Below, in pieces: positions 1-16,850 of a stretch of 16,850 bases of DNA. The notes under the pieces were generated by a model. It was not told where the DNA came from and did no database searches. It saw only the letters and a list, made by a program, of their open reading frames with translations. The stretch is taken from IMG/VR virus record IMGVR_UViG_3300045988_162729; one strand, written 5' to 3'. The stretch's first letter is position 1; every line of letters begins with the position of its first letter. This DNA is from a virus. The position numbers were made by a program, and so were the translations under genes.

Positions 1-326
1 CACAGAACACATCACGCTGAGAAACTCCTGCACGCCCCACACGGACATTTCCCCAATTTTGTACGCCAAGCAAAGACAAACATGTGTTCGAATTTTTTGT
101 GCGGATGAGGGTGAACGTATGGTTGGTGATGAGGCTGCGATCGAACGGCTGGTTGTGGTGAACAAGAGTTTGGGTTGTGATGGTGGAGTCATGGATTGTT
201 AAATTTTTAACATATGAATAGTTGTTCAGGTGTTGCTTAAATAACAAGAGGTTTGGTATAGTTAGAAACTATTAGACATTTATATGAATGTGAGGTATAA
301 TGGAAGCATAAAAGGAACTGGTAAAT
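1..326. repeat. Left inverted terminal repeat (ITR), 326 bp
   Basis: Bases 1-326 are the exact reverse complement of 16525-16850, compared by eye. Identity ends at 327 (g, versus a in the mirrored right end). Terminal repeats together with a protein-primed polB indicate a linear genome with terminal-protein-capped ends. Confidence 0.95.
273..301 (+). promoter_or_regulatory. Left early promoter inside the ITR (TAGACA-17 nt-TATAAT)
   Basis: The -35 TAGACA lies at 273-278, followed by a 17-nt spacer and a consensus -10 TATAAT at 296-301. It points inward toward the first CDS at 351. Confidence 0.6.
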
Positions 327-350
327 GTATATTAGAAAAGGAGAATTAAT

Positions 351-1370: not shown

Positions 1371-3557
1371 ATGATTTTAAATAGACCGGAATCAGTCGAT
1401 GAAAAAAGATTATCTTCTATTGTTTACAATGAAGATATTAATATATCTGAAATAATAGAAGAAAATACGAATAACACGATTTCAAATGGAAAGAAAAGAC
1501 GTGTTTTGTTATCTGATTTTGGAACTATTGATACAGAGACAACTACTATTCGTGCTTGTTCGGTAAACAATCCATTTGATTTCCCGATATCTGTAACATA
1601 CTTATATCAAATTACACTTTTTGATTATAATTTTATTTTTAGAACTTCTGATGATTTTTCAAGTTTTCTTAACACAATAGTTGTTGAGTTAAACAAGCAT
1701 AATGCTACATTAGTATTTTACGTTCATAATTTATCATTTGAATTTCAGTTTTTTAAAGCATTTTTGAATATAGATTCAGATTCAGTATTTGCTACAAAAC
1801 CGCGTTCTATAATGAAATTTACAACTGATGATGGAGCATTAGAATTTCGATGTAGTTATTATTTGTCTAATATGAGTCTTGAAAAATTTACAGAAAATTT
1901 CTGTGATGAAACATATCGCAAAGATAAAGACTTAATTGACTATGAGATTGAACGTTTTCCATGGACTGAATTATCAGACGAGGAATTATATTACTCCTTA
2001 ATGGACACTATTACATTGTATCATGCCATAAAAAATATTATGGAAAAAGATGGCGATAATATAAAAACGATTCCGGCTACTAGCACAGGTTATCCGCGTC
2101 GTGATGGTCGTATTGCTTGCATTGGTAAATCATCTTATCACAGAACAGATGAACAGAAAAAATATGTTAAATTATTTCATAAAGTACGAATTGATAAACA
2201 TATGATGGAACTTGCGGAAAAAGCTTTTCGTGGTGGAAATACGCACGCAAATAGATTCTATGCAAATCAGCATCTATATAATATTGGAAGTTATGATTTC
2301 TCTAGTTCCTATCCTGCTGTTATTGTTGCATCCGATTATTTTGCTATGTCAAAACCAGTTGAGTGTACAAAAGATGTACAAGACTTAGACTCGTTAAAAT
2401 ACTATGCAAATAAGTATTGGATGATTTTACGTATATTATTTAAGGATATTGAAGTTAGAGACTATAAAAAAGTCGTATGCCCGTATATATCAAAATCAAA
2501 TGTTTTGTATGATCGAAAAGAAGATGGAATATATGATAACGGAAGAATTTTAAAACAGAATGGATATGTAGAGATAACGTGTCTCGGAAATGAACTGCCT
2601 ATTATAATGGGACAATACAAAGGAAGTTTTAAAGTTATAGAGGCATACTACAGCCATAAAGGATATTTACCAGATTTATTACGTAAAACAGTGCTTAATT
2701 ATTTTCATACCAAAACAGAATTGAAAGGAGTACAAGGAAAAGAATACGAATACATGAAATCAAAAAACAAGCTAAATTCCTTTTATGGAATGATGGTTGA
2801 AAAAATGGTAAAACCGATTATCGAATATTCGCTCGGTAAATGTATTATGAGACAACCGACTGAAGAAGAAATAGAAGATGCAATTGCTAAATTCTATTCG
2901 AATCGTTCAAACAAATATTTGTGCTTTCTGTGGGGTGTATCTATTACGGCAGTAGCGCGTGTTAGGTTGCAGGAAATGATCGATATTGTAGGTTCTGATT
3001 TTGTTTATTGTGATACTGATTCATGTAAAATGAGAAGTCCAGAAAAATATATAAAGAAATTTGATGAATATAACGAAGAATGGATTAAAAAAGCTGATAA
3101 TTGTGGATTGCAGTATTATGCATATACAAAAAATAATGAAAAACAAATTTTAGGAATTGCAGATCGTGAATCAGATTATAAAGAATTTATTACGCTAGGT
3201 GCAAAGAAATACGCTGTTATTAATCAGAAAAATGTACTTGAAATTACAATTGCAGGTGTTCCTAAAAAAGCAGGTGCATTATTATTAGGAAATATAGATA
3301 ATTTCAAGCCGGGATTTGTTTTTAAAACAAGTGATTCTGATTCTAATTCATTGCGTCAATTATGGAAGAAAACATTATTTTATAACGATGATATTAATGA
3401 GGTATTAACAATAGATGGTAAACAATTAAACATTACATCTTATGTAGCACTTGAGCGTACAACCTATGAGTTAAACATAACAGACGAGTATCAAGACTTA
3501 ATACAAGAAAATTACTTAAATACTTTAATGGTGCAAGATGATGTATACTTTAATTAG
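1371..3557 (+). CDS. Protein-primed family-B DNA polymerase (728 aa)
   Basis: All signature motifs are visible. Exo I is IDTETTT (phi29 DFETTT). Exo II is VHNLSFEFQF (phi29 HNLKFDGAF). Exo III is YYSLMDTITL. Motif A is YDFSSSYP (Dx2SLYP). Motif B is KNKLNSFYGMM (Kx3NSxYG). Motif C is VYCDTDS. The KxY motif is GAKKYAV. Confidence 0.95.
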   Translation: MILNRPESVDEKRLSSIVYNEDINISEIIEENTNNTISNGKKRRVLLSDFGTIDTETTTIRACSVNNPFDFPISVTYLYQITLFDYNFIFRTSDDFSSFLNTIVVELNKHNATLVFYVHNLSFEFQFFKAFLNIDSDSVFATKPRSIMKFTTDDGALEFRCSYYLSNMSLEKFTENFCDETYRKDKDLIDYEIERFPWTELSDEELYYSLMDTITLYHAIKNIMEKDGDNIKTIPATSTGYPRRDGRIACIGKSSYHRTDEQKKYVKLFHKVRIDKHMMELAEKAFRGGNTHANRFYANQHLYNIGSYDFSSSYPAVIVASDYFAMSKPVECTKDVQDLDSLKYYANKYWMILRILFKDIEVRDYKKVVCPYISKSNVLYDRKEDGIYDNGRILKQNGYVEITCLGNELPIIMGQYKGSFKVIEAYYSHKGYLPDLLRKTVLNYFHTKTELKGVQGKEYEYMKSKNKLNSFYGMMVEKMVKPIIEYSLGKCIMRQPTEEEIEDAIAKFYSNRSNKYLCFLWGVSITAVARVRLQEMIDIVGSDFVYCDTDSCKMRSPEKYIKKFDEYNEEWIKKADNCGLQYYAYTKNNEKQILGIADRESDYKEFITLGAKKYAVINQKNVLEITIAGVPKKAGALLLGNIDNFKPGFVFKTSDSDSNSLRQLWKKTLFYNDDINEVLTIDGKQLNITSYVALERTTYELNITDEYQDLIQENYLNTLMVQDDVYFN

Positions 3558-3562
3558 GCAAT

Positions 3563-3664
3563 AAAAAAACTCCGGTGCTATTAGCATTGCCAACCACGGC
3601 ACAAGATACAGTAGAACTTAATCCATGGTATCTGTATCAAGCTTGATCTAATAGTCACCGGATT
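3563..3664 (-). ncRNA. Candidate structured small RNA (phi29 pRNA-like architecture); strand uncertain
   Basis: A 14-bp closing helix pairs 3571-3584 (tccggtgctattag) with 3648-3662 (ctaatagtcaccgga), leaving one bulged base at 3655. It encloses 63 nt with three possible hairpins. These are 3588-3601 (loop aaccac), 3604/3605-3633/3638, and the 3636-3647 palindrome atcaagcttgat. On the minus strand the helix is followed directly by T7 (complement of 3563-3569). It is also preceded by a possible promoter, TTGCAT (3699-3694), 17 nt, TG-extended TACTAT (3676-3671), which would place the transcription start at the base of the helix. Confidence 0.35.
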
Positions 3665-3709
3665 GATTATATAGTATCATATTTTTTTAAAAAATGCAAG
3701 ATAAAAAGC

Positions 3710-3738
3710 TTGACATTTTAAGATAATAGTTATATACT
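3710..3738 (+). promoter_or_regulatory. Consensus sigma-A type promoter (TTGACA-17 nt-TATACT)
   Basis: TTGACA lies at 3710-3715, followed by exactly 17 nt and TATACT at 3733-3738. It is 50 nt upstream of the CDS at 3788. The hexamers and the TATACTATA extension are identical to those of the promoter at 5634. Confidence 0.75.
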
Positions 3739-3787
3739 ATAGTTGTAACAAAGAAAAAAATAAAAATTAAAAAGGAGAACAAATTAT

Positions 3788-4144
3788 ATGGCATTAAAAG
3801 TAAAAGAAACTACATTTTCAGCGAGAGACACACTTCGAATTACATCTTCTACAGATGCAGTACCGATGAAAGATGTGCCGGATGGAACAGAACTTCATTA
3901 CATCGGATATGTAAAGACAGAAATTACAAATGAATCATCAGGTGAAATTTTTGATTCGATTGTAATTAAAACAGAAGATGGCAGTTTATATGCAACACGA
4001 TCAGCTTCCTTTATGAGAGCATTAGAGGAAATTCTTGAAACAATTGCTGATTTTGGGGAAGATGATTTAGAACCAATTATTTTAACAGTTAAACATCTTA
4101 AGAGTAAGAATGGAAATACATTTGTTACATGTCAGTTAGCATAA
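3788..4144 (+). CDS. Probable single-stranded DNA-binding protein, phi29 p5-like (118 aa)
   Basis: Strong RBS (aaaggag). Size and motifs resemble phi29 SSB p5 as I recall it. VPDGT matches LPDGT, EDGSLYA matches ADGSLYS, and the C-terminal NGNTFVTCQL matches KGNVFFSLQL. This rests on memory-based similarity, not a search. Confidence 0.55.
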   Translation: MALKVKETTFSARDTLRITSSTDAVPMKDVPDGTELHYIGYVKTEITNESSGEIFDSIVIKTEDGSLYATRSASFMRALEEILETIADFGEDDLEPIILTVKHLKSKNGNTFVTCQLA

Positions 4145-4406: not shown

Positions 4407-4440
4407 AAAAAGCGGCTAGTGGAAATCAGCCGCTTTTTAT
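4407..4440 (+). terminator. Intrinsic terminator
   Basis: The stem pairs aaaaagcggct (4407-4417) with agccgcttttt (4428-4438) around a 10-nt loop. A T-run, tttttatttttg, follows. The GC-rich core is agcggct/agccgct. Confidence 0.75.
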
Positions 4441-4443
4441 TTT

Positions 4444-4459
4444 TGTTTCACGTGAAACA
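4444..4459. promoter_or_regulatory. Palindrome copy 1: TGTTTCACGTGAAACA
   Basis: Perfect 16-bp palindrome. It is followed one nt later by the RBS agaaagg and ends 16 nt before the ATG at 4476 (packaging ATPase). Confidence 0.9.
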
Positions 4460-4475
4460 CAGAAAGGCAAATATT

Positions 4476-5576
4476 ATGTATTTTGATGAATTTAATAATT
4501 TTAAAGTTATGCCACCATATCACGACGGTAGAAAGTTATTATCTTTAAAAGATTTAAATAAAGAGAAACCAGAAATTTATATTGATACTACTAATCGTAC
4601 AGCAGGTAAAACAACGTTTTACAATGGATATTTGGTTGATAGATTTTTACAATTTGGCGAAAAATTTTGTCTATTGTACAGAAAAAAATATGAGTTAGAG
4701 ATCGTAGAAAGAACATTTTTTGATGATATAGGAAAAATTTTTTTCAGCGGATTGGAAATGATATCAGAATCTAAAGCAAATGGTGCTATTGATTTTTTGT
4801 ACTTAAATCAAGTTGGCGAAAAAGAGTCTAATAAAAAACAGTGTGGATATGCGATATCAATTAGTGGTGCTGATGAAATAAAGAAAATGTCACACCTGTT
4901 ATCTGATGTTGTTAGGATTTTATTTGATGAATTTCAATTGGAATCAAGGCGTTATCTTAAAAATGAATTACAGAGTGTTATTTCTATACACGACTCAATT
5001 GCGCGTGGTGCAGGACAACAAACTAGATATGTTCCATTAATTCTTGTCGGAAATTTACTTGATTTATATAATCCCTATTATGAAGCAATGGGAATATCAA
5101 TGCGGCTTGATATCAAAACAAATTATATGCGTGGTAATGGATGGGTACTAGCGCAAGGTTTCAACGCAGAAGCGGCAAGTAAAATAAAACAGACAGGTTT
5201 TCATAAAGCATTTTCATCGCATGACTACACAGCGGTATCTGAAAAGAAAGAATACTTATTCGATGAAACAAATAATATCAGAACTGATATTCCAAACCGG
5301 GGTTCTTATGTAGGTACTATTTCCTCAAAAAATAAAAAATACGGTGTCCGGTATATATGGGAATGTGAATGTTTTTATGTAAGCAAAAAATCAGATCCAT
5401 CGTGGGTAACTGCTATAGCCGCTACTGAATCAGATATAGCAGAAGATTCGATTTTCATTAGAAGATCAAAACTGAGAGAAAAACTAGAAAAAGCATTGCA
5501 TACAAATAATTTGTACTATGACAGTATGGAGAGTAAAAAGGCGTCATTATCATTAATATATAACAAAGAAATTTGA
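4476..5576 (+). CDS. DNA encapsidation (packaging) ATPase, phi29 gp16-like (366 aa)
   Basis: Walker A is NRTAGKTT and Walker B is ILFDEF. The size is typical of gp16-type ATPases. I place the start at ATG 4476 (RBS agaaagg at 4461-4467) rather than the ORF-track 4419, which lies inside the upstream terminator hairpin. Confidence 0.85.
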   Translation: MYFDEFNNFKVMPPYHDGRKLLSLKDLNKEKPEIYIDTTNRTAGKTTFYNGYLVDRFLQFGEKFCLLYRKKYELEIVERTFFDDIGKIFFSGLEMISESKANGAIDFLYLNQVGEKESNKKQCGYAISISGADEIKKMSHLLSDVVRILFDEFQLESRRYLKNELQSVISIHDSIARGAGQQTRYVPLILVGNLLDLYNPYYEAMGISMRLDIKTNYMRGNGWVLAQGFNAEAASKIKQTGFHKAFSSHDYTAVSEKKEYLFDETNNIRTDIPNRGSYVGTISSKNKKYGVRYIWECECFYVSKKSDPSWVTAIAATESDIAEDSIFIRRSKLREKLEKALHTNNLYYDSMESKKASLSLIYNKEI

Positions 5577-6052: not shown

Positions 6053-6765
6053 TGGGAAGCATTGCAAAGGCAGTTAAGTTTATGATAGAAATTGCAAATG
6101 ACGATTTACATGGATATGATCAAGTGGAAAGAAATGGCCCTGATTATGACTGTTCATCTCTAGTTTCAACGGCATTATATCAAGCAGGTTTTAATATTTC
6201 TCCTTATTCTTGGACTGGTAACATGGAAGTACAATTGAGAGCATGTGGTTTCACTGATTGTAAACCGCCTTGGAAAGCAGGTGACATACATCTCAATAGT
6301 AAACATCATGTATGTATGTCAATAAATGAGAATCAAATTGCGCAAGCATCTATTAACGAAAACGGTTATGTGACTGGTGGGAAAACAGGAGATCAAACTG
6401 GTAAAGAAATAATTATTAGAAATTACTATGAGTATTCAAAAGGATGGGATTTTCATTTAAGATACACTGGTGAACATAATCATAAGACACTAGAAGAAAT
6501 CGTAGATGAAGTGATAGCAGGAAAATGGGGAAATGGTGATTCCAGAGTTACCGCCTTACAGAATGCAGGTTTTAATCCAAACAGTGTTCAGACTGAGGTA
6601 AATAAAAAATTAAGAAAAACTGATGAAAAGAGGAAATCAGATATAGCAAAAGAAGTATTAGAAGGGAAATGGGGAAATGGAACTGATAGAATCGTAAATT
6701 TAACAAAAGCAGGATATGAATATGAAGAAATACAAAATATTGTAAATCAGATGTTGCAGAGGTAA
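6052..6765 (+). CDS. Endolysin: N-terminal Amidase_5/NlpC-P60-type cysteine amidase/peptidase plus two CW_7 (Cpl-7-type) cell-wall-binding repeats (237 aa)
   Basis: NGPDYDCSSLVSTALYQAG resembles the Dp-1 Pal motif DGPDSYDCSSSMYYALRSAG (catalytic Cys), with HHVCM downstream. Two repeats, GKWGNGDSRVTALQNAGFNPNSVQTEVNKKL and GKWGNGTDRIVNLTKAGYEYEEIQNIVNQML, match the CW_7 pattern GxWGNGxxRxxxLxxAGYxYxxVQxxVN. Confidence 0.9.
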   Translation: MGSIAKAVKFMIEIANDDLHGYDQVERNGPDYDCSSLVSTALYQAGFNISPYSWTGNMEVQLRACGFTDCKPPWKAGDIHLNSKHHVCMSINENQIAQASINENGYVTGGKTGDQTGKEIIIRNYYEYSKGWDFHLRYTGEHNHKTLEEIVDEVIAGKWGNGDSRVTALQNAGFNPNSVQTEVNKKLRKTDEKRKSDIAKEVLEGKWGNGTDRIVNLTKAGYEYEEIQNIVNQMLQR

Positions 6766-8181: not shown

Positions 8182-9585
8182 ATGGCAAGACGAGTAGCAG
8201 TAAATACACTTAGTGCATCAACAATTGATATCTTAAATGTTATAAGACAGAATGCATCGTATGATTATCAGCAGAATGTCCCTGTTGTAACTAAATCAAA
8301 TGATATTCCAAAGGTTGGGGAGGTAATCTATGGAACGCCTGCATTTGCGAATCAGTTTATCAATGCTCTTGTAAATAGAATTGCAATTGTAAGAACGCAG
8401 AGTGCAACTTTTAACAATCCATATTCCATTCTTAAAAAAGGATATTTGGAATTTGGCGAAACAGTAGAAGATATCTTTGTTTCAATTGCAAAAGCTGTTG
8501 ATTTTAGCGCTGAGAAAGCAAGTGCAAGGGAATTCAAACGTACAATTCCAGATATTCGATCTGCATTTCATGTAATGAATTGGCGCGTAATGTACCCAGT
8601 AACTATTCAGGATGAAGATTTGAGACAGGCGTTTTTGTCTATGGATGGCGTAACATCATTAATTGCAAAAATTGTTGATTCTGTTTATACGGCGGCAGAA
8701 TACGACGAATTTTTGATGTTTAAATATTTACTTATTAAGTCAATTAGCCATGGCAAAATGAAACCTGTTGCGCTCGGTGCTACAATGAATGATGCCGCAG
8801 TCGAATTCAGAGGAGCATCAAATATTTTACCTTTTATGTCAAGCGAGTACAATGAAGCGGCTGTTAAAACAAATACGCCTAAAGATCGGCAGGTCATATT
8901 TATGGATGCCCGTTATAATGCGCAGTATGATGTTAATGTATTGGCATCTGCATTTAATATGGATAAAGCAGACTTCATGGGACGCCTTTTCCTAATTGAC
9001 AATTGGTCAGATTTTGACAATGATAGGTTTGATATTATTCGCGAAAATTCAGATGGAATTGAGGAAATTACCGTTGATGAACTTGCACTTATGGCAAAAG
9101 TAAAGGCTGTAATCCTTGATGAAAATTGGTTTCAGGTGTATGATAACAATAATAAATTTACTGAAAAATATGTAGCATCGGGAATGTACTGGAATTATTT
9201 TTACCATACTTGGAAAACAATTTCGTCTAGTCCATTTGCAAATGCAATTGTTTTTGTCGAATCAGATGCAACTATCACACCTTTTGCATCAATTACGGCT
9301 GAAATTGTTGATAAATCAATTACAGATGAAGCTATTACAATTACAATTCAGGCAGAACATGACGGAGCAACTTTACAGCCCAACGTTGTTAATTTTGTAC
9401 AGACAGAAGAACTTACAACAAATGGAATCGCTGTGCATAAATATGGTGCATTGTTAATTCCGGCAGGAAAAGCAAGTACAAACATTAAGCTTGAGGCTAT
9501 CATCGATGGTGTTACTTATAAGGCGACAACAAATATTACAAGTGCGTCTAATGTTGGTGCAACAGTAACTATGAACAAGCAGTAA
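8182..9585 (+). CDS. Major capsid protein (467 aa), phi29 gp8-like position and size
   Basis: Strong RBS agaaaggag. The gene follows the scaffold gene, and its size is close to phi29 gp8. The C-terminal roughly 100 aa look like an Ig-like (BIG2-type) domain, with alternating T/I/V beta-strand patterns. The call rests mainly on synteny. Confidence 0.75.
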   Translation: MARRVAVNTLSASTIDILNVIRQNASYDYQQNVPVVTKSNDIPKVGEVIYGTPAFANQFINALVNRIAIVRTQSATFNNPYSILKKGYLEFGETVEDIFVSIAKAVDFSAEKASAREFKRTIPDIRSAFHVMNWRVMYPVTIQDEDLRQAFLSMDGVTSLIAKIVDSVYTAAEYDEFLMFKYLLIKSISHGKMKPVALGATMNDAAVEFRGASNILPFMSSEYNEAAVKTNTPKDRQVIFMDARYNAQYDVNVLASAFNMDKADFMGRLFLIDNWSDFDNDRFDIIRENSDGIEEITVDELALMAKVKAVILDENWFQVYDNNNKFTEKYVASGMYWNYFYHTWKTISSSPFANAIVFVESDATITPFASITAEIVDKSITDEAITITIQAEHDGATLQPNVVNFVQTEELTTNGIAVHKYGALLIPAGKASTNIKLEAIIDGVTYKATTNITSASNVGATVTMNKQ

Positions 9586-11701: not shown

Positions 11702-12577
11702 ATGGCAAGAAAGAAAACATTATTTGATGAAAGTCTTACGATGAATCAACAGACATATTATTTTTATATAGATCGGTTAACTGAATTGTCAATTTCGATG
11801 TTTAAATGGGAAAATTTGCCAGACACGGTTGATAGCAGGTATATAGAATTGTCACTGTTTAAAAATGGGAATTCTATTTACTTTAACGATGATGTAATCG
11901 GAAATTTATGTCTGGATTGTGTACCATCAGGAAATTTTGATGTATACGGAAATCCGACTGGAAGAAGAGCGTATTCGTCATATAATAACTATTCGAAAAT
12001 ACTTGATGAAACAAACAGTGTAATTATATGGAATAATATGCTTAGAACAAACAGTTATCCGGCTGTTGAAATGTTTTCGAAAAAACTATATATACTTGAC
12101 AGAATTATTGACGTTAATAGCAATGCACAAAAAACGCCAGTATTATTACAAGGAACTGATAAACAGAGATTAACATTGCTTAATTTGTACAAAGAATTTG
12201 ACGGAAATACACCTTTTATTTTTGGGGATAAAAATTTAGATTTAGGGGCAATTACAGCAATAAATACAAATGCACCTTACATATCTGATAAAATATACGA
12301 TCTTAAAAGTAAAATTTGGAATGAAGCACTGACATATCTTGGAATTAGTAATGTGACTATTACGAAAAAAGAACGAATGATAACAGATGAAGTTGCACGA
12401 GCACAGGGTGGAACTATAGCATCAAGATACAGTAGACTACAATCAAGAAAAGATGCAGTGGAAAAAATAAACAATATGTTTGGAACAAATATTAAAGTAT
12501 CTTATAAAGAAGATTCTGATAATGTTTCACGTGAAACATTAGATCAAGACGAAAAAGGTGGTGAACTTTTTGAGTAA
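11702..12577 (+). CDS. Portal / upper collar (connector) protein, phi29 gp10-like (291 aa)
   Basis: There are clear matches to phi29 gp10 as I recall it. FKWENLPDTV matches FEWENLPPTI. NSNAQKTPVLLQG matches NQNAQKTPVLIRA. TNAPYISDK matches TDAPYVVDK. KKERMITDEV matches KKERMVTDEV. Confidence 0.95.
   Translation: MARKKTLFDESLTMNQQTYYFYIDRLTELSISMFKWENLPDTVDSRYIELSLFKNGNSIYFNDDVIGNLCLDCVPSGNFDVYGNPTGRRAYSSYNNYSKILDETNSVIIWNNMLRTNSYPAVEMFSKKLYILDRIIDVNSNAQKTPVLLQGTDKQRLTLLNLYKEFDGNTPFIFGDKNLDLGAITAINTNAPYISDKIYDLKSKIWNEALTYLGISNVTITKKERMITDEVARAQGGTIASRYSRLQSRKDAVEKINNMFGTNIKVSYKEDSDNVSRETLDQDEKGGELFE
12523..12538. promoter_or_regulatory. Palindrome copy 8: TGTTTCACGTGAAACA (inside the portal 3' end; 18-bp palindrome 12522-12539)
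   Basis: Perfect copy, translated as NVSRET in the portal frame, which differs from the frame used by copy 2. It ends 19 nt before the GTG start at 12558. Confidence 0.9.
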
Positions 12578-16506: not shown

Positions 16507-16524
16507 ATAAGTTCTCTCCTTTCT

Positions 16525-16850
16525 ATTTACCAGTTCCTTTTATGCTTCCATTATACCTCACATTCATATAAATGTCTAATAGTTTCTAACTATACCAAAC
16601 CTCTTGTTATTTAAGCAACACCTGAACAACTATTCATATGTTAAAAATTTAACAATCCATGACTCCACCATCACAACCCAAACTCTTGTTCACCACAACC
16701 AGCCGTTCGATCGCAGCCTCATCACCAACCATACGTTCACCCTCATCCGCACAAAAAATTCGAACACATGTTTGTCTTTGCTTGGCGTACAAAATTGGGG
16801 AAATGTCCGTGTGGGGCGTGCAGGAGTTTCTCAGCGTGATGTGTTCTGTG
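16525..16850. repeat. Right inverted terminal repeat (ITR), 326 bp
   Basis: Exact reverse complement of 1-326. Confidence 0.95.
16550..16578 (-). promoter_or_regulatory. Right early promoter inside the ITR (mirror copy of 273-301)
   Basis: Because it is part of the exact ITR, the same TAGACA-17 nt-TATAAT promoter is present on the minus strand. It points inward at the three leftward genes. Confidence 0.6.

What the first reader, a model, noticed from the sequence alone, without database searches (positions are those of the whole stretch)
3563..3700. Structured RNA candidate after the polymerase gene with phi29 pRNA-like architecture
Seen directly: a 14-bp helix pairs 3571-3584 with 3648-3662, leaving one bulged base. 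It closes a 63-nt domain that can form three hairpins in a multi-helix junction. The loop of the first hairpin (aaccac, 3592-3597) contains ACCA, which is complementary to TGGT (3626-3629) in the large apical loop of the second hairpin. That second loop also contains the self-complementary CCATGG (3623-3628). On the minus strand the helix is flanked by a plausible TG-extended promoter (TTGCAT 3699-3694, 17 nt, TACTAT 3676-3671). This promoter would start transcription at the helix base, and a T7 tract follows immediately after the helix. The result would be a discrete transcript of about 100 nt with paired 5' and 3' ends.

Established knowledge: phi29-family packaging motors with gp16-type ATPases and gp10-type connectors use a pRNA. 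Its 5' and 3' ends form helix A, and two of its loops pair intermolecularly through 4 nt (AACC/GGUU in phi29) to build the ring.

Inference: this locus may encode the pRNA equivalent. pRNAs are poorly conserved in sequence and are unannotated outside the Bacillus phi29 relatives. Alternatively, it may be only a large bidirectional terminator separating early transcription from the divergent promoter at 3710.
Basis: partly seen in the sequence, partly recalled or inferred. Interest (0 to 1): 0.75.

Follow-up and report, generated by a model that had tools for sequence, protein, structure and literature searches.

The report
pRNA-like small RNA gene, gut phage
Between the polymerase and SSB genes of this phi29-like gut phage lies a roughly 92-nt RNA gene on the opposite strand whose conserved fold and co-varying loop-loop pairing copy the layout of the phi29 packaging RNA, a molecule so far reported only in Bacillus phages.

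Summary
The window is a complete 16.85-kb phi29-type podophage genome with 339-nt terminal repeats and gp16-type ATPase, gp10-type connector, phi29-type SSB and capsid genes.

Positions 3571-3662 encode a structured RNA on the minus strand. It has an extended -10 promoter upstream and a U7 tract after the closing helix.

I found 28 distinct versions in relatives whose polymerases are 43-99% identical. All lie just upstream of the SSB gene. All share one architecture: helix A from the paired 5' and 3' ends, an 11-bp helix C, a 6-nt 5'-side bulge, a 4-bp stem with a 6-nt loop, and a 3-bp hairpin with a 6-nt loop.

Of the pair cells, 93% are paired, with heavy compensatory change. RNAalifold recovers the same fold from a structure-naive alignment.

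The last four bulge bases pair with loop positions 2-5 of the next hairpin in 111 of 112 cells. The pair sets are AUCA/UGAU, ACCA/UGGU, GUCA/UGAC and GCCA/UGGC.

The order and geometry match phi29 pRNA, but Rfam RF00044 does not detect it.

Best reading: a diverged pRNA-type ring-forming packaging RNA. This function is inferred, not shown. A simple bidirectional terminator is very unlikely.

The parts
3571..3662 (-). Predicted small RNA gene (about 92 nt from the helix base at 3662 to the helix base at 3571). The true 5' and 3' ends are not mapped.
   Evidence: Folds at z -4.6. Covariance models R1 and R2 hit 3586-3642 on the minus strand at 70.3 and 65.4 bits. The window is a seed of both models, so these hits are by construction; the informative hits are the non-seed relatives. 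There are 28 homologous versions.
3648..3662 (-). Helix A, 5' strand (UCCGGUGACUAUUAG; A3656 bulged).
   Evidence: The flanks are complementary in all 28 relatives despite unrelated sequences, median z -4.1. L082 shows a compensatory G-C to A-U change.
3571..3584 (-). Helix A, 3' strand (CUAAUAGCACCGGA).
3643..3647 (-). Junction strand J(A/C), AUCAA. Together with the start of helix C it can form the window-specific AUCAAGCUUGAU hairpin.
   Evidence: The hairpin is not conserved outside the window clade.
3632..3642 (-). Helix C, 5' strand (GCUUGAUACAG).
   Evidence: All 11 pairs show double changes across relatives. The UU/UU internal mismatch is kept in L183.
3601..3611 (-). Helix C, 3' strand (CUGUAUCUUGU).
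3626..3631 (-). CE-type 5'-side bulge AUACCA. ACCA (3629-3626), optionally with U3625 as a G.U pair, pairs with the D loop.
   Evidence: The loop-loop pairs form in 111 of 112 cells, with AU/GC/GU and UA/CG alternation.
3612..3625 (-). E hairpin: stem UGGA/UCUA with 6-nt loop UUAAGU.
   Evidence: All 4 pairs show compensatory changes and 99% of cells are paired. The loop consensus UUrAkU resembles phi29 UUGAGU.
3589..3600 (-). D hairpin: stem GCC/GGC with 6-nt loop GUGGUU (3597-3592). UGGU is the partner of the bulge.
   Evidence: L001 has a C-to-U change that gives G.U on the minus strand but A.C on the plus strand.
3563..3570 (-). G followed by U7 directly after helix A: an intrinsic-terminator-like 3' end for the minus-strand RNA.
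   Evidence: A U-run of 4 or more follows helix A in 18 of 28 relatives on the RNA strand and in 0 of 28 on the opposite strand.
3666..3679 (-). Extended -10 TGaTACTAT (3679-3671) overlapping a perfect TATAAT (3671-3666).
   Evidence: A -10 element lies 3-11 nt upstream of helix A in the relatives. The mean promoter score is 9.8 on the RNA strand and 3.7 on the opposite strand.
3694..3699 (-). Weak -35-like hexamer TTGCAT, 17 nt upstream of TACTAT.
   Evidence: It scores only 3/6 and is not listed by the promoter scan.
3710..3738 (+). Divergent plus-strand promoter TTGACA-17-TATACT for the SSB/ATPase operon (context, not part of the RNA).
   Evidence: 11 of 12 matches.
4419..5576 (+). gp16-type packaging ATPase, the presumed partner of helix A (context).
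   Evidence: PF05894 Podovirus_Gp16, E 3e-17; phrog_2150.
11702..12577 (+). gp10-type connector, the presumed docking site of the RNA ring (context).
   Evidence: PF05352 Phage_connector, E 4.5e-62.

Best explanation
Positions 3662 to 3571 on the minus strand encode an independently transcribed small RNA of about 92 nt. It is a diverged functional equivalent of the phi29 prohead/packaging RNA (pRNA).

Shown here:
- The RNA folds into a three-way junction.
- Helix A is formed by its own 5' and 3' ends.
- One arm consists of an 11-bp helix C, a 6-nt bulge on the 5' side, and a 4-bp stem capped by a 6-nt loop.
- The second arm is a 3-bp hairpin with a 6-nt loop.
- The last four bulge bases are always complementary to positions 2-5 of that hairpin loop, and the two sites co-vary.

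Inferred:
- The bulge sits about 11 bp (roughly 30 Angstrom) up helix C, while the partner loop sits only 3 bp from the junction. The pairing is therefore made between molecules rather than within one.
- Head-to-tail intermolecular pairing would close the RNAs into a ring on the gp10-type connector of the prohead.
- Helix A would point outward and dock the gp16-type ATPase, as in phi29.
For: 1. Motor context. The phage has Podovirus_Gp16, Phage_connector (GP10), Phi29_SSB and Phi29_MCP genes and 339-nt terminal repeats.

2. Family. There are 28 distinct versions in relatives whose polymerases are 43-99% identical. All lie immediately upstream of the SSB-like gene.

3. Covariation.
- On the curated alignment A7, 93.2% of 606 cells are paired (shuffles 60.4%). 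The covariation score is 0.834 against 0.231 (0 of 500 shuffles reach it). Slid controls give 0.07-0.15.
- On the model-fitted alignment A5 the figures are 93.2% and 0.661 against 0.188.
- RNAalifold on a structure-naive MAFFT alignment returns the identical 18 pairs, 17 of them with compensatory changes.

4. Loop-loop pairing. This pairing was never part of any model. It forms in 111 of 112 cells. Pair 1 is AU 18, GC 6, GU 4. Pair 2 is UA 18, CG 10. Four fully Watson-Crick sets occur in separate clades.

5. Strand.
- 45 G.U against 7 A.C cells.
- The minus strand folds better than the plus strand in the window and in every minus-type relative compared on both strands; 24 of the 28 members are minus-type.
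- Mean promoter score is 9.8 on the RNA strand and 3.7 on the opposite strand. U-runs occur in 18 of 28 against 0 of 28.
- One clade (L004-type) carries the gene inverted with its own TTGACA-17-TGcTAAGAT promoter. The unit is therefore defined by its own strand, not by its neighbours.

6. Same order and proportions as phi29 pRNA. The shared features are helix A, helix C with an internal irregularity, a 5' bulge whose last 4 nt are the pairing bases, a 4-bp E stem, a 6-nt E loop (UUGAGU in phi29 and in L112), and a D hairpin. With filters off, model R2's best hit in the phi29 left end is the pRNA core in the homologous register, although it scores only 7.4 bits, E 0.15.

7. More distant phages, including the cultured Clostridium phage HM2, have differently placed RNAs with the same bulge/loop logic and covariation.
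Against: - Rfam RF00044 finds nothing in the window or in nine relatives even at E up to 10. It scores 145 bits on phi29 itself.
- The RNA is smaller than phi29 pRNA: 81-140 nt against 117-174 nt. Helix A is 13-14 bp in the window, the D stem is 3 bp, and the bulge is 6 nt rather than 9.
- The gene sits mid-genome and antisense to its neighbours, not at the left end.
- There is no expression, oligomerisation, prohead-binding or packaging data.
- The intermolecular reading of the loop pairing rests on a geometric argument only.
- At least one phi29-like phage (asccphi28) is reported to show no evidence of a pRNA in its genome, and its ATPase forms rings on its own (PMC7823558). A phi29-type motor therefore does not by itself imply a pRNA.
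- One member (L112) has only 3 of the 4 loop pairs.
Confidence: 0.62

Rival explanations
1. A trans-acting or antisense regulatory small RNA, for example one that times early and late expression or replication, or that acts against a host defence. Its bulge and hairpin loop would form an intramolecular pseudoknot, and it would have no role in packaging.
For: - The element is an independent promoter-to-terminator unit lying antisense between two plus-strand operons, next to a divergent promoter.
- There is no Rfam pRNA hit.
- The covariation proves that the bases pair, not that the pairing is intermolecular.
Against: - The gene works in either orientation relative to its neighbours (the L004 clade), so a cis-antisense target is unlikely.
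- The bulge lies 11 bp from the junction and the partner loop only 3 bp from it, which makes an intramolecular contact sterically hard (inference).
- No conserved single-stranded seed region other than the two mutually complementary loops and the E loop was seen.
- The detailed match to the pRNA layout would be coincidental.
Confidence: 0.17
2. The element is only a large, branched bidirectional terminator or insulator separating polymerase-operon transcription from the divergent SSB promoter.
For: - A GC-rich closing helix is followed by U7 on the minus strand and preceded by A7 on the plus strand. It sits exactly between two transcription units.
- Helix A plus the U-run probably does terminate the small RNA itself.
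Against: - A terminator does not need covarying unpaired loops, a fixed 6-nt bulge, or fixed 4-bp/6-nt and 3-bp/6-nt hairpins.
- There is no minus-strand gene upstream to terminate.
- On the plus strand the helix is not followed by a U-run: 0 of 28 relatives have one, and the terminator scan finds none.
- L083 has a separate ordinary terminator hairpin next to the element.
- L004-type genomes place the element after a promoter and before the SSB ribosome-binding site, with no U-run.
Confidence: 0.05
3. A cis-acting leader or UTR element, such as a protein-binding operator or riboregulator of SSB/ATPase-operon mRNA or of the polymerase 3' UTR.
For: - In the L004 clade the element lies between a promoter and the SSB ribosome-binding site on the coding strand, with no terminator. 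There it would be a 5' leader.
Against: - In the window and in 23 other versions it is on the opposite strand from both flanking genes, with its own promoter and terminator.
- The plus-strand promoter of the window (3710-3738) lies downstream of the element, so the SSB mRNA does not contain it.
Confidence: 0.05

Closest known systems
phi29 prohead/packaging RNA (pRNA; Rfam RF00044 Phage_pRNA) of Bacillus phages phi29, PZA, M2/Nf, B103, SF5 and GA1
   Same: - Encoded by a protein-primed podophage with a gp16 ATPase and a gp10 connector.
- Has its own sigma-A-type promoter with a TG-extended -10.
- The 5' and 3' ends pair to form helix A.
- Three-way junction.
- The C helix has an internal irregularity.
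- A 5'-side bulge whose last 4 nt, immediately before the E stem, pair with the loop of the following D hairpin.
- 4-bp E stem and 6-nt E loop (UUGAGU in phi29; UUAAGU in the window; UUGAGU in L112).
- The loop-loop pair differs between relatives while staying complementary.
   Different: - Not detected by RF00044, and the reverse search is only marginal (7.4 bits).
- Shorter: 92 nt against a 117-120-nt core.
- Bulge of 6 nt against 9 nt.
- D stem of 3 bp against 6 bp.
- Junction strands of 5, 0 and 4 nt in the window and 3, 0 and 3 nt in L002-type relatives, against 1, 3 and 0 nt in phi29.
- No 3' domain II.
- Located between the polymerase and SSB genes and antisense to them, instead of at the left genome end.
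- The pairing code is R-Y-C-A / U-G-R-Y instead of AACC/GGUU.
- The hosts are gut anaerobes (probably Clostridia), not Bacillus.
- Function is untested.
Rho-independent (bidirectional) terminators
   Same: A GC-containing helix is followed by a U-run on the minus strand and flanked by an A-run on the other side. It lies between transcription units.
   Different: The stem encloses a conserved 63-nt branched domain with covarying loops. There is no upstream gene on the strand that carries the U-run. The tool's terminator scan does not call it.
pRNA-like elements noticed here in Clostridium phage HM2 and related contigs (L011, L115, L133)
   Same: They share the same logic: a closing helix, a hairpin with a 5' bulge and an inner stem-loop, and a following hairpin loop complementary to the bulge. 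The pairing covaries: UCCAA/UUGGA, UCUGA/UCAGA, UGACU/AGUCA, GUAGU/ACUAC.
   Different: They lie on the plus strand at a different genome position (after the ATPase gene in HM2). They have 5-bp pairings and different loop sizes. Models R1 and R2 do not find them.

Membership tests
phi29 pRNA (Rfam RF00044 Phage_pRNA) | Scores at or above the family's gathering threshold with the Rfam covariance model. | tested here: not met
   No hit in the window at gathering threshold. No hit at E up to 10 in 3450-3850 or in nine relatives. The positive control, phi29, scores 145.4 bits.
phi29 pRNA (Rfam RF00044 Phage_pRNA) | Encoded by a phage with a gp16-type packaging ATPase and a gp10-type connector. | tested here: met
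   PF05894 at E 3e-17 and PF05352 at E 4.5e-62.
phi29 pRNA (Rfam RF00044 Phage_pRNA) | 5' and 3' ends pair to form helix A, which closes a three-way junction with a C/E arm and a D arm in that order. | tested here: met
   Minimum-free-energy folds of 20 or more relatives. RNAalifold gives the same structure. Helix A complementarity has a median z of -4.1.
phi29 pRNA (Rfam RF00044 Phage_pRNA) | About 4 nt of the CE bulge are complementary to the D loop, and the pair changes together between relatives. | tested here: met
   111 of 112 cells are paired, with four Watson-Crick pair sets plus G.U intermediates.
phi29 pRNA (Rfam RF00044 Phage_pRNA) | The loop-loop pairing is intermolecular and yields dimers or pentameric rings. 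| not testable with these tools
   Only a geometric argument is available: 11 bp against 3 bp from the junction.
phi29 pRNA (Rfam RF00044 Phage_pRNA) | Binds the prohead connector, docks the ATPase, and is required for DNA packaging. | not testable with these tools
   Needs biochemistry.
phi29 pRNA (Rfam RF00044 Phage_pRNA) | Discrete small transcript from its own early promoter. | tested here: inconclusive
   A conserved -10 or extended -10 and U-runs are present on the RNA strand. There are no transcript data, and the window's -35 is weak.
phi29 pRNA (Rfam RF00044 Phage_pRNA) | Gene at the left end of the genome, downstream of promoter A1. | tested here: not met
   The gene is internal, between the polymerase gene (ends 3557) and the SSB gene (starts 3788), on the opposite strand.
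Intrinsic (bidirectional) terminator | A simple GC-rich hairpin immediately followed by a U-run, downstream of a gene on the same strand. | tested here: not met
   No terminator is called. The U-run is on the minus strand only, where no upstream gene exists. The internal loops covary.

The most novel reading that the evidence does not exclude
pRNA-dependent packaging motors are not a peculiarity of Bacillus phages. A large clade of 15-18-kb human-gut phi29-like phages encodes a compact pRNA class of about 80-140 nt that current models cannot detect. More distant lineages, including the cultured Clostridium phage HM2, appear to do so in other structural versions. These RNAs would self-assemble into rings through a simple, naturally varied 4-nt code (R-Y-C-A with U-G-R-Y). 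That would supply new minimal ring-forming RNA modules and an evolutionary series for the origin of pRNA.
Probability: 0.55. Interest if true: 0.88.

Novelty: new variant of a known kind. Interest (0 to 1): 0.8.

Why it matters
Reviews state that pRNA is unique to phi29 and related Bacillus phages (PMC5066667; PMC11476376, 2024). The Lactococcus relative asccphi28 was chosen as a model precisely because its genome shows no evidence of a pRNA (PMC7823558).

A covariation-supported pRNA-like gene family in uncultured gut phages would have four consequences:
1. It would widen the known distribution of RNA-containing packaging motors.
2. It would allow the questions of why these motors use an RNA, and which features are essential, to be tested by comparison. 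The conserved features here are the 4-nt loop code, the 6-nt E loop, helix A and the mismatch in helix C.
3. It would give RNA nanotechnology smaller natural ring-forming three-way-junction modules with several orthogonal kissing pairs.
4. It would show that genome annotation of small podophages routinely misses a probably essential gene.

If the RNA turns out not to be a packaging RNA, it is still a new, widespread, strongly constrained phage small RNA.

Tried and rejected
- Rfam at gathering and at permissive thresholds on the window and on nine relatives returned only chance hits.
- Megablast of the whole window, and blastn of 3500-3800, against 50,697 phage records found no informative match.
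- The pattern scan GATATCA..TTAA..CCGGTGAT in IMG/VR gave 8 hits. Three were true: L086, which is the L002 contig, plus L088 and L091. The other five were chance.
- My own descriptor search for the architecture was useless: 5389 hits against 4897 in shuffled sequence.
- Models R1 and R2 do not reach the L004-type (plus-strand) members, the clades with 35-39% polymerase identity, or HM2. For phi29 the result is 7.4 bits with filters off. I therefore cannot claim one homologous superfamily.
- The L087 hit at 18.3 bits looks like coding sequence and was rejected.
- The window-specific small hairpin AUCAAGCUUGAU and the CCATGG palindrome were considered as functional parts. Both were rejected because they are not conserved.
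- The plus-strand reading was rejected for four reasons: 45 G.U against 7 A.C cells; lower stability in the window and in every minus-type relative compared on both strands; no promoter or U-run on that strand; and a reversed element order relative to pRNA.
- Host assignment from MAG bins is only a hint. The closest relative sits in a Lachnospiraceae bin.

Full report
**What the window is**

The 16,850-base window is a complete linear genome of a phi29-type podophage.
- It has 339-nt inverted terminal repeats, 98% identical.
- Nearly all genes are on the plus strand.
- It encodes a protein-primed-type DNA polymerase (1371-3557; phrog_1907).
- It encodes a phi29-type SSB (3788-4144), a gp16-type packaging ATPase (4419-5576), a phi29-type major capsid protein (8182-9585) and a gp10-type connector (11702-12577) (Pfam; PHROGs).
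- It has no close relative among 50,697 deposited phage genomes.
- The nearest named phage by polymerase is Clostridium phage HM2 at 37% identity.
- Relatives come from human-gut metagenomes.

**The observation**

- the 14-bp helix with one bulge (3571-3584 with 3648-3662);
- the enclosed 63 nt;
- ACCA (3593-3596) and TGGT (3626-3629);
- CCATGG;
- on the minus strand, TTGCAT, 17 nt, TG-a-TACTAT, and a T7 tract one base after the helix.

The 92-nt element folds much better than shuffles on both strands: z -4.6 on minus and z -5.1 on plus. Stability alone therefore cannot tell the strands apart.

**Relatives**

A 97% relative (L001) and a 95% relative (L082) carry a few substitutions in the element.
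- One is compensatory in helix A (G-C to A-U).
- Two others give G.U on the minus strand but A.C on the plus strand.

I collected polymerase relatives at 43-53% identity from IMG/VR, JGI/ENA metagenomes and Logan/ENA assemblies. All have a non-coding gap of 220-300 nt in front of the SSB-like gene. In every case this gap holds a structured element whose minimum-free-energy fold shows the same plan.

Read on the minus strand, the plan is:
- helix A, made by the two ends;
- a short junction strand;
- helix C, 11 bp, usually with one internal mismatch or bulge;
- a 6-nt bulge on the 5' side only;
- a 4-bp stem with a 6-nt loop of consensus UUrAkU;
- the return strand of helix C;
- a 3-bp hairpin with a 6-nt loop, either immediately or after a few bases;
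- a short junction strand;
- the return strand of helix A.

**Covariation**

- A core covariance model (R1) finds the relatives at E values from 1e-19 to about 0.8.
- On its fitted alignment of 16 sequences, 93.2% of cells pair. The covariation score is 0.661 against 0.188 in shuffles (0 of 500 reach it) and 0.02-0.08 when partners are slid.
- I built a hand-curated alignment of 28 distinct sequences. It is N-padded, MAFFT returned it ungapped, and each row was verified as a true substring of its locus.
- On that alignment 93.2% of 606 cells pair (shuffles 60.4%). The covariation score is 0.834 against 0.231 (0 of 500), and 0.07-0.15 when slid.
- All 11 pairs of helix C, all 4 of the inner stem and all 3 of the hairpin show double changes.
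- RNAalifold on a structure-naive MAFFT alignment of 16 sequences predicts exactly these 18 pairs, 17 of them with compensatory changes.
- The flanks that form helix A are unrelated in sequence between clades but complementary in all 28, with a median z of -4.1.

**The loop-loop pair**

The last four bulge bases lie directly 5' of the inner stem. They are complementary to positions 2-5 of the hairpin loop in 111 of 112 cells.
- Pair 1 is A-U 18, G-C 6, G.U 4.
- Pair 2 is U-A 18, C-G 10.
- Pairs 3 and 4 are nearly invariant C-G and A-U.

The observed sets are:
- AUCA/UGAU: 11 members.
- ACCA/UGGU: 5 members. These are the window clade and, separately, L095/L182.
- GUCA/UGAC: 2 members.
- GCCA/UGGC: 3 members.
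- G.U intermediates: 6 members. These are GUCA/UGAU (3), AUCG/UGAU (2) and GCCA/UGGU (1).
- Exception: L112, with 3 of 4 pairs.

These pairs were in none of the models. Their columns are fixed by the neighbouring stems, so this is an independent test.

**Which strand**

- G.U cells outnumber A.C cells 45 to 7.
- The minus strand folds better in the window and in every minus-type relative compared on both strands.
- A -10 element lies 3-11 nt upstream of helix A on the RNA strand. It is often TG-extended or paired with a TTGACA-like -35 at 17-18 nt. The mean promoter score is 9.8 against 3.7 on the opposite strand.
- A U-run of at least 4 follows helix A in 18 of 28 members, against 0 of 28 on the opposite strand.
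- One clade (L004-L009, L103-L111) carries the gene on the plus strand behind its own TTGACA-17-TGcTAAGAT promoter. There the plus strand folds better, at -32.5 against -21.5 kcal/mol.

The unit is thus defined by its own strand and promoter, not by its neighbours. This argues against a terminator, a cis-antisense RNA or a UTR element.

**Comparison with pRNA**

The Rfam alignment of phi29 pRNA shows:
- helix A;
- helix C with a bulged U;
- a 9-nt 5' bulge ending in AACC immediately before the 4-bp E stem (CUGA/UCAG);
- a 6-nt E loop, UUGAGU;
- three junction bases;
- a D hairpin whose loop (UGGUU) pairs with AACC of another molecule;
- the return strand of helix A.

The promoter is TTGACA-17-TGcTATAAT.

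The family found here has the same order, the same placement of the pairing bases, the same E stem and loop sizes, and in some members near-identical local sequence:
- L095: AAACCACCUGUUGAUUCAGG.
- L112: E loop UUGAGU.

It differs in overall size, bulge length, D-stem length, junction strands, genome position and orientation.

RF00044 does not detect it. My broader model R2, run without filters on the phi29 left end, places its best hit on the pRNA core in the homologous register. That hit scores only 7.4 bits, E 0.15. This is suggestive but not proof of homology.

I therefore do not file it as a member of RF00044. I file it as a new variant of the same kind of molecule.

**Mechanism**

Shown:
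- a strongly constrained three-way-junction RNA;
- a selected bulge/loop complementarity;
- signals of a discrete transcription unit;
- a host phage with a phi29-type motor.

Inferred:
- The bulge is about 11 bp from the junction and the partner loop only 3 bp from it, so the pairing is most plausibly intermolecular.
- Head-to-tail pairing would close a ring on the connector, with helix A docking the ATPase, as in phi29.

I put this at about 0.6.

Rivals:
- a regulatory small RNA with an intramolecular pseudoknot, about 0.17;
- a mere bidirectional terminator, about 0.05;
- a cis leader element, about 0.05.

**Wider distribution**

Clades with 35-39% polymerase identity are not reached by R1 or R2. 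Even so, L011, L115, L133 and the cultured Clostridium phage HM2 contain, at another genome position and on the plus strand, RNAs with the same bulge/loop logic. Their 5-bp pairings covary: UCCAA/UUGGA, UCUGA/UCAGA, UGACU/AGUCA and GUAGU/ACUAC. This was only partly followed up.

**Literature**

In the held library, reviews describe pRNA as unique to phi29 and related Bacillus phages (PMC5066667; PMC11476376). asccphi28 is described as showing no evidence for a pRNA (PMC7823558). The C. perfringens podophage paper mentions pRNA only as the partner of the encapsidation protein (PMC3362512). Further searches found no report of a pRNA outside Bacillus phages. Subscription-journal papers are not covered by this library.

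**Verdict**

This is a new variant of a known kind. Interest is high because it contradicts a textbook statement of uniqueness and is directly testable.

Noticed in passing
window 1-339 and 16512-16850: 339-nt inverted terminal repeats, 98% identical. The window is therefore a complete linear genome. These repeats are far longer than the 6-bp repeats of phi29.
   Followed up: partly
window 4445, 6010, 7851, 9604, 9630, 11639, 11670, 12524 (each 14 nt): The perfect palindrome GTTTCACGTGAAAC occurs 8 times, against 0 expected by chance. Most copies lie in gaps between late genes. It also sits right after the RNA gene in relative L180. It may be an operator for a transcription regulator, or a family of terminator hairpins.
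   Followed up: partly
L004-L009, L103-L111 (e.g. L004 3370-3477, plus strand): In this sister clade the RNA gene is inverted onto the coding strand behind a strong TTGACA-17-TGcTAAGAT promoter. It has no U-run and runs straight into the SSB ribosome-binding site. The RNA would have to be processed out of a leader, or would act as part of the mRNA. Its D element is a weak 2-3-bp hairpin with a 9-nt loop.
   Followed up: partly
L177 (Clostridium phage HM2, LT600745) 6088-6312; L011 5922-6116; L115 6055-6279; L133 5777-5922: These more distant small podophages have plus-strand structured RNAs at another genome position. They show the same logic of a 5' bulge complementary to the next hairpin's loop, with covariation: GUAGU/ACUAC, UCCAA/UUGGA, UCUGA/UCAGA, UGACU/AGUCA. 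HM2 is cultured, so it offers an experimental entry point.
   Followed up: partly
L083, L085, L094, L095, L181, L184, L185 (gene tables): The gp16 ATPase gene is on the minus strand in many relatives but on the plus strand in the window, L179, L182 and L183. The packaging ATPase module has therefore been inverted repeatedly within this phage group.
   Followed up: no
L083 4697-4730: A separate, ordinary GC-rich terminator hairpin (GGGAGCUAUAGUAGCUCCC followed by a U-run on the plus strand) sits between the polymerase stop codon and the 3' end of the RNA gene. In that genome the structured RNA is clearly not the polymerase terminator.
   Followed up: yes
window 3623-3628 and 3635-3646: Two palindromes are not conserved. 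CCATGG inside the bulge/E stem becomes CTATGG in L082. The HindIII-type palindrome ATCAAGCTTGAT gives a small extra hairpin in the minimum-free-energy fold but is absent outside the window clade. They are probably incidental.
   Followed up: yes
window 4419-4460: The listed ATPase ORF starts at a GTG at 4419 and runs through one copy of the 14-nt palindrome (4445-4458). The true start codon may lie further downstream. The Pfam match begins at residue 59.
   Followed up: no
L186 (CAVJGK010000027.1) and other genome-contig hits: Relatives appear as 12-15-kb contigs binned into MAGs of Lachnospiraceae, Oscillospiraceae, Christensenellaceae and others. This is a weak hint that the hosts are gut Clostridia. 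Binning of phage contigs is unreliable.
   Followed up: no
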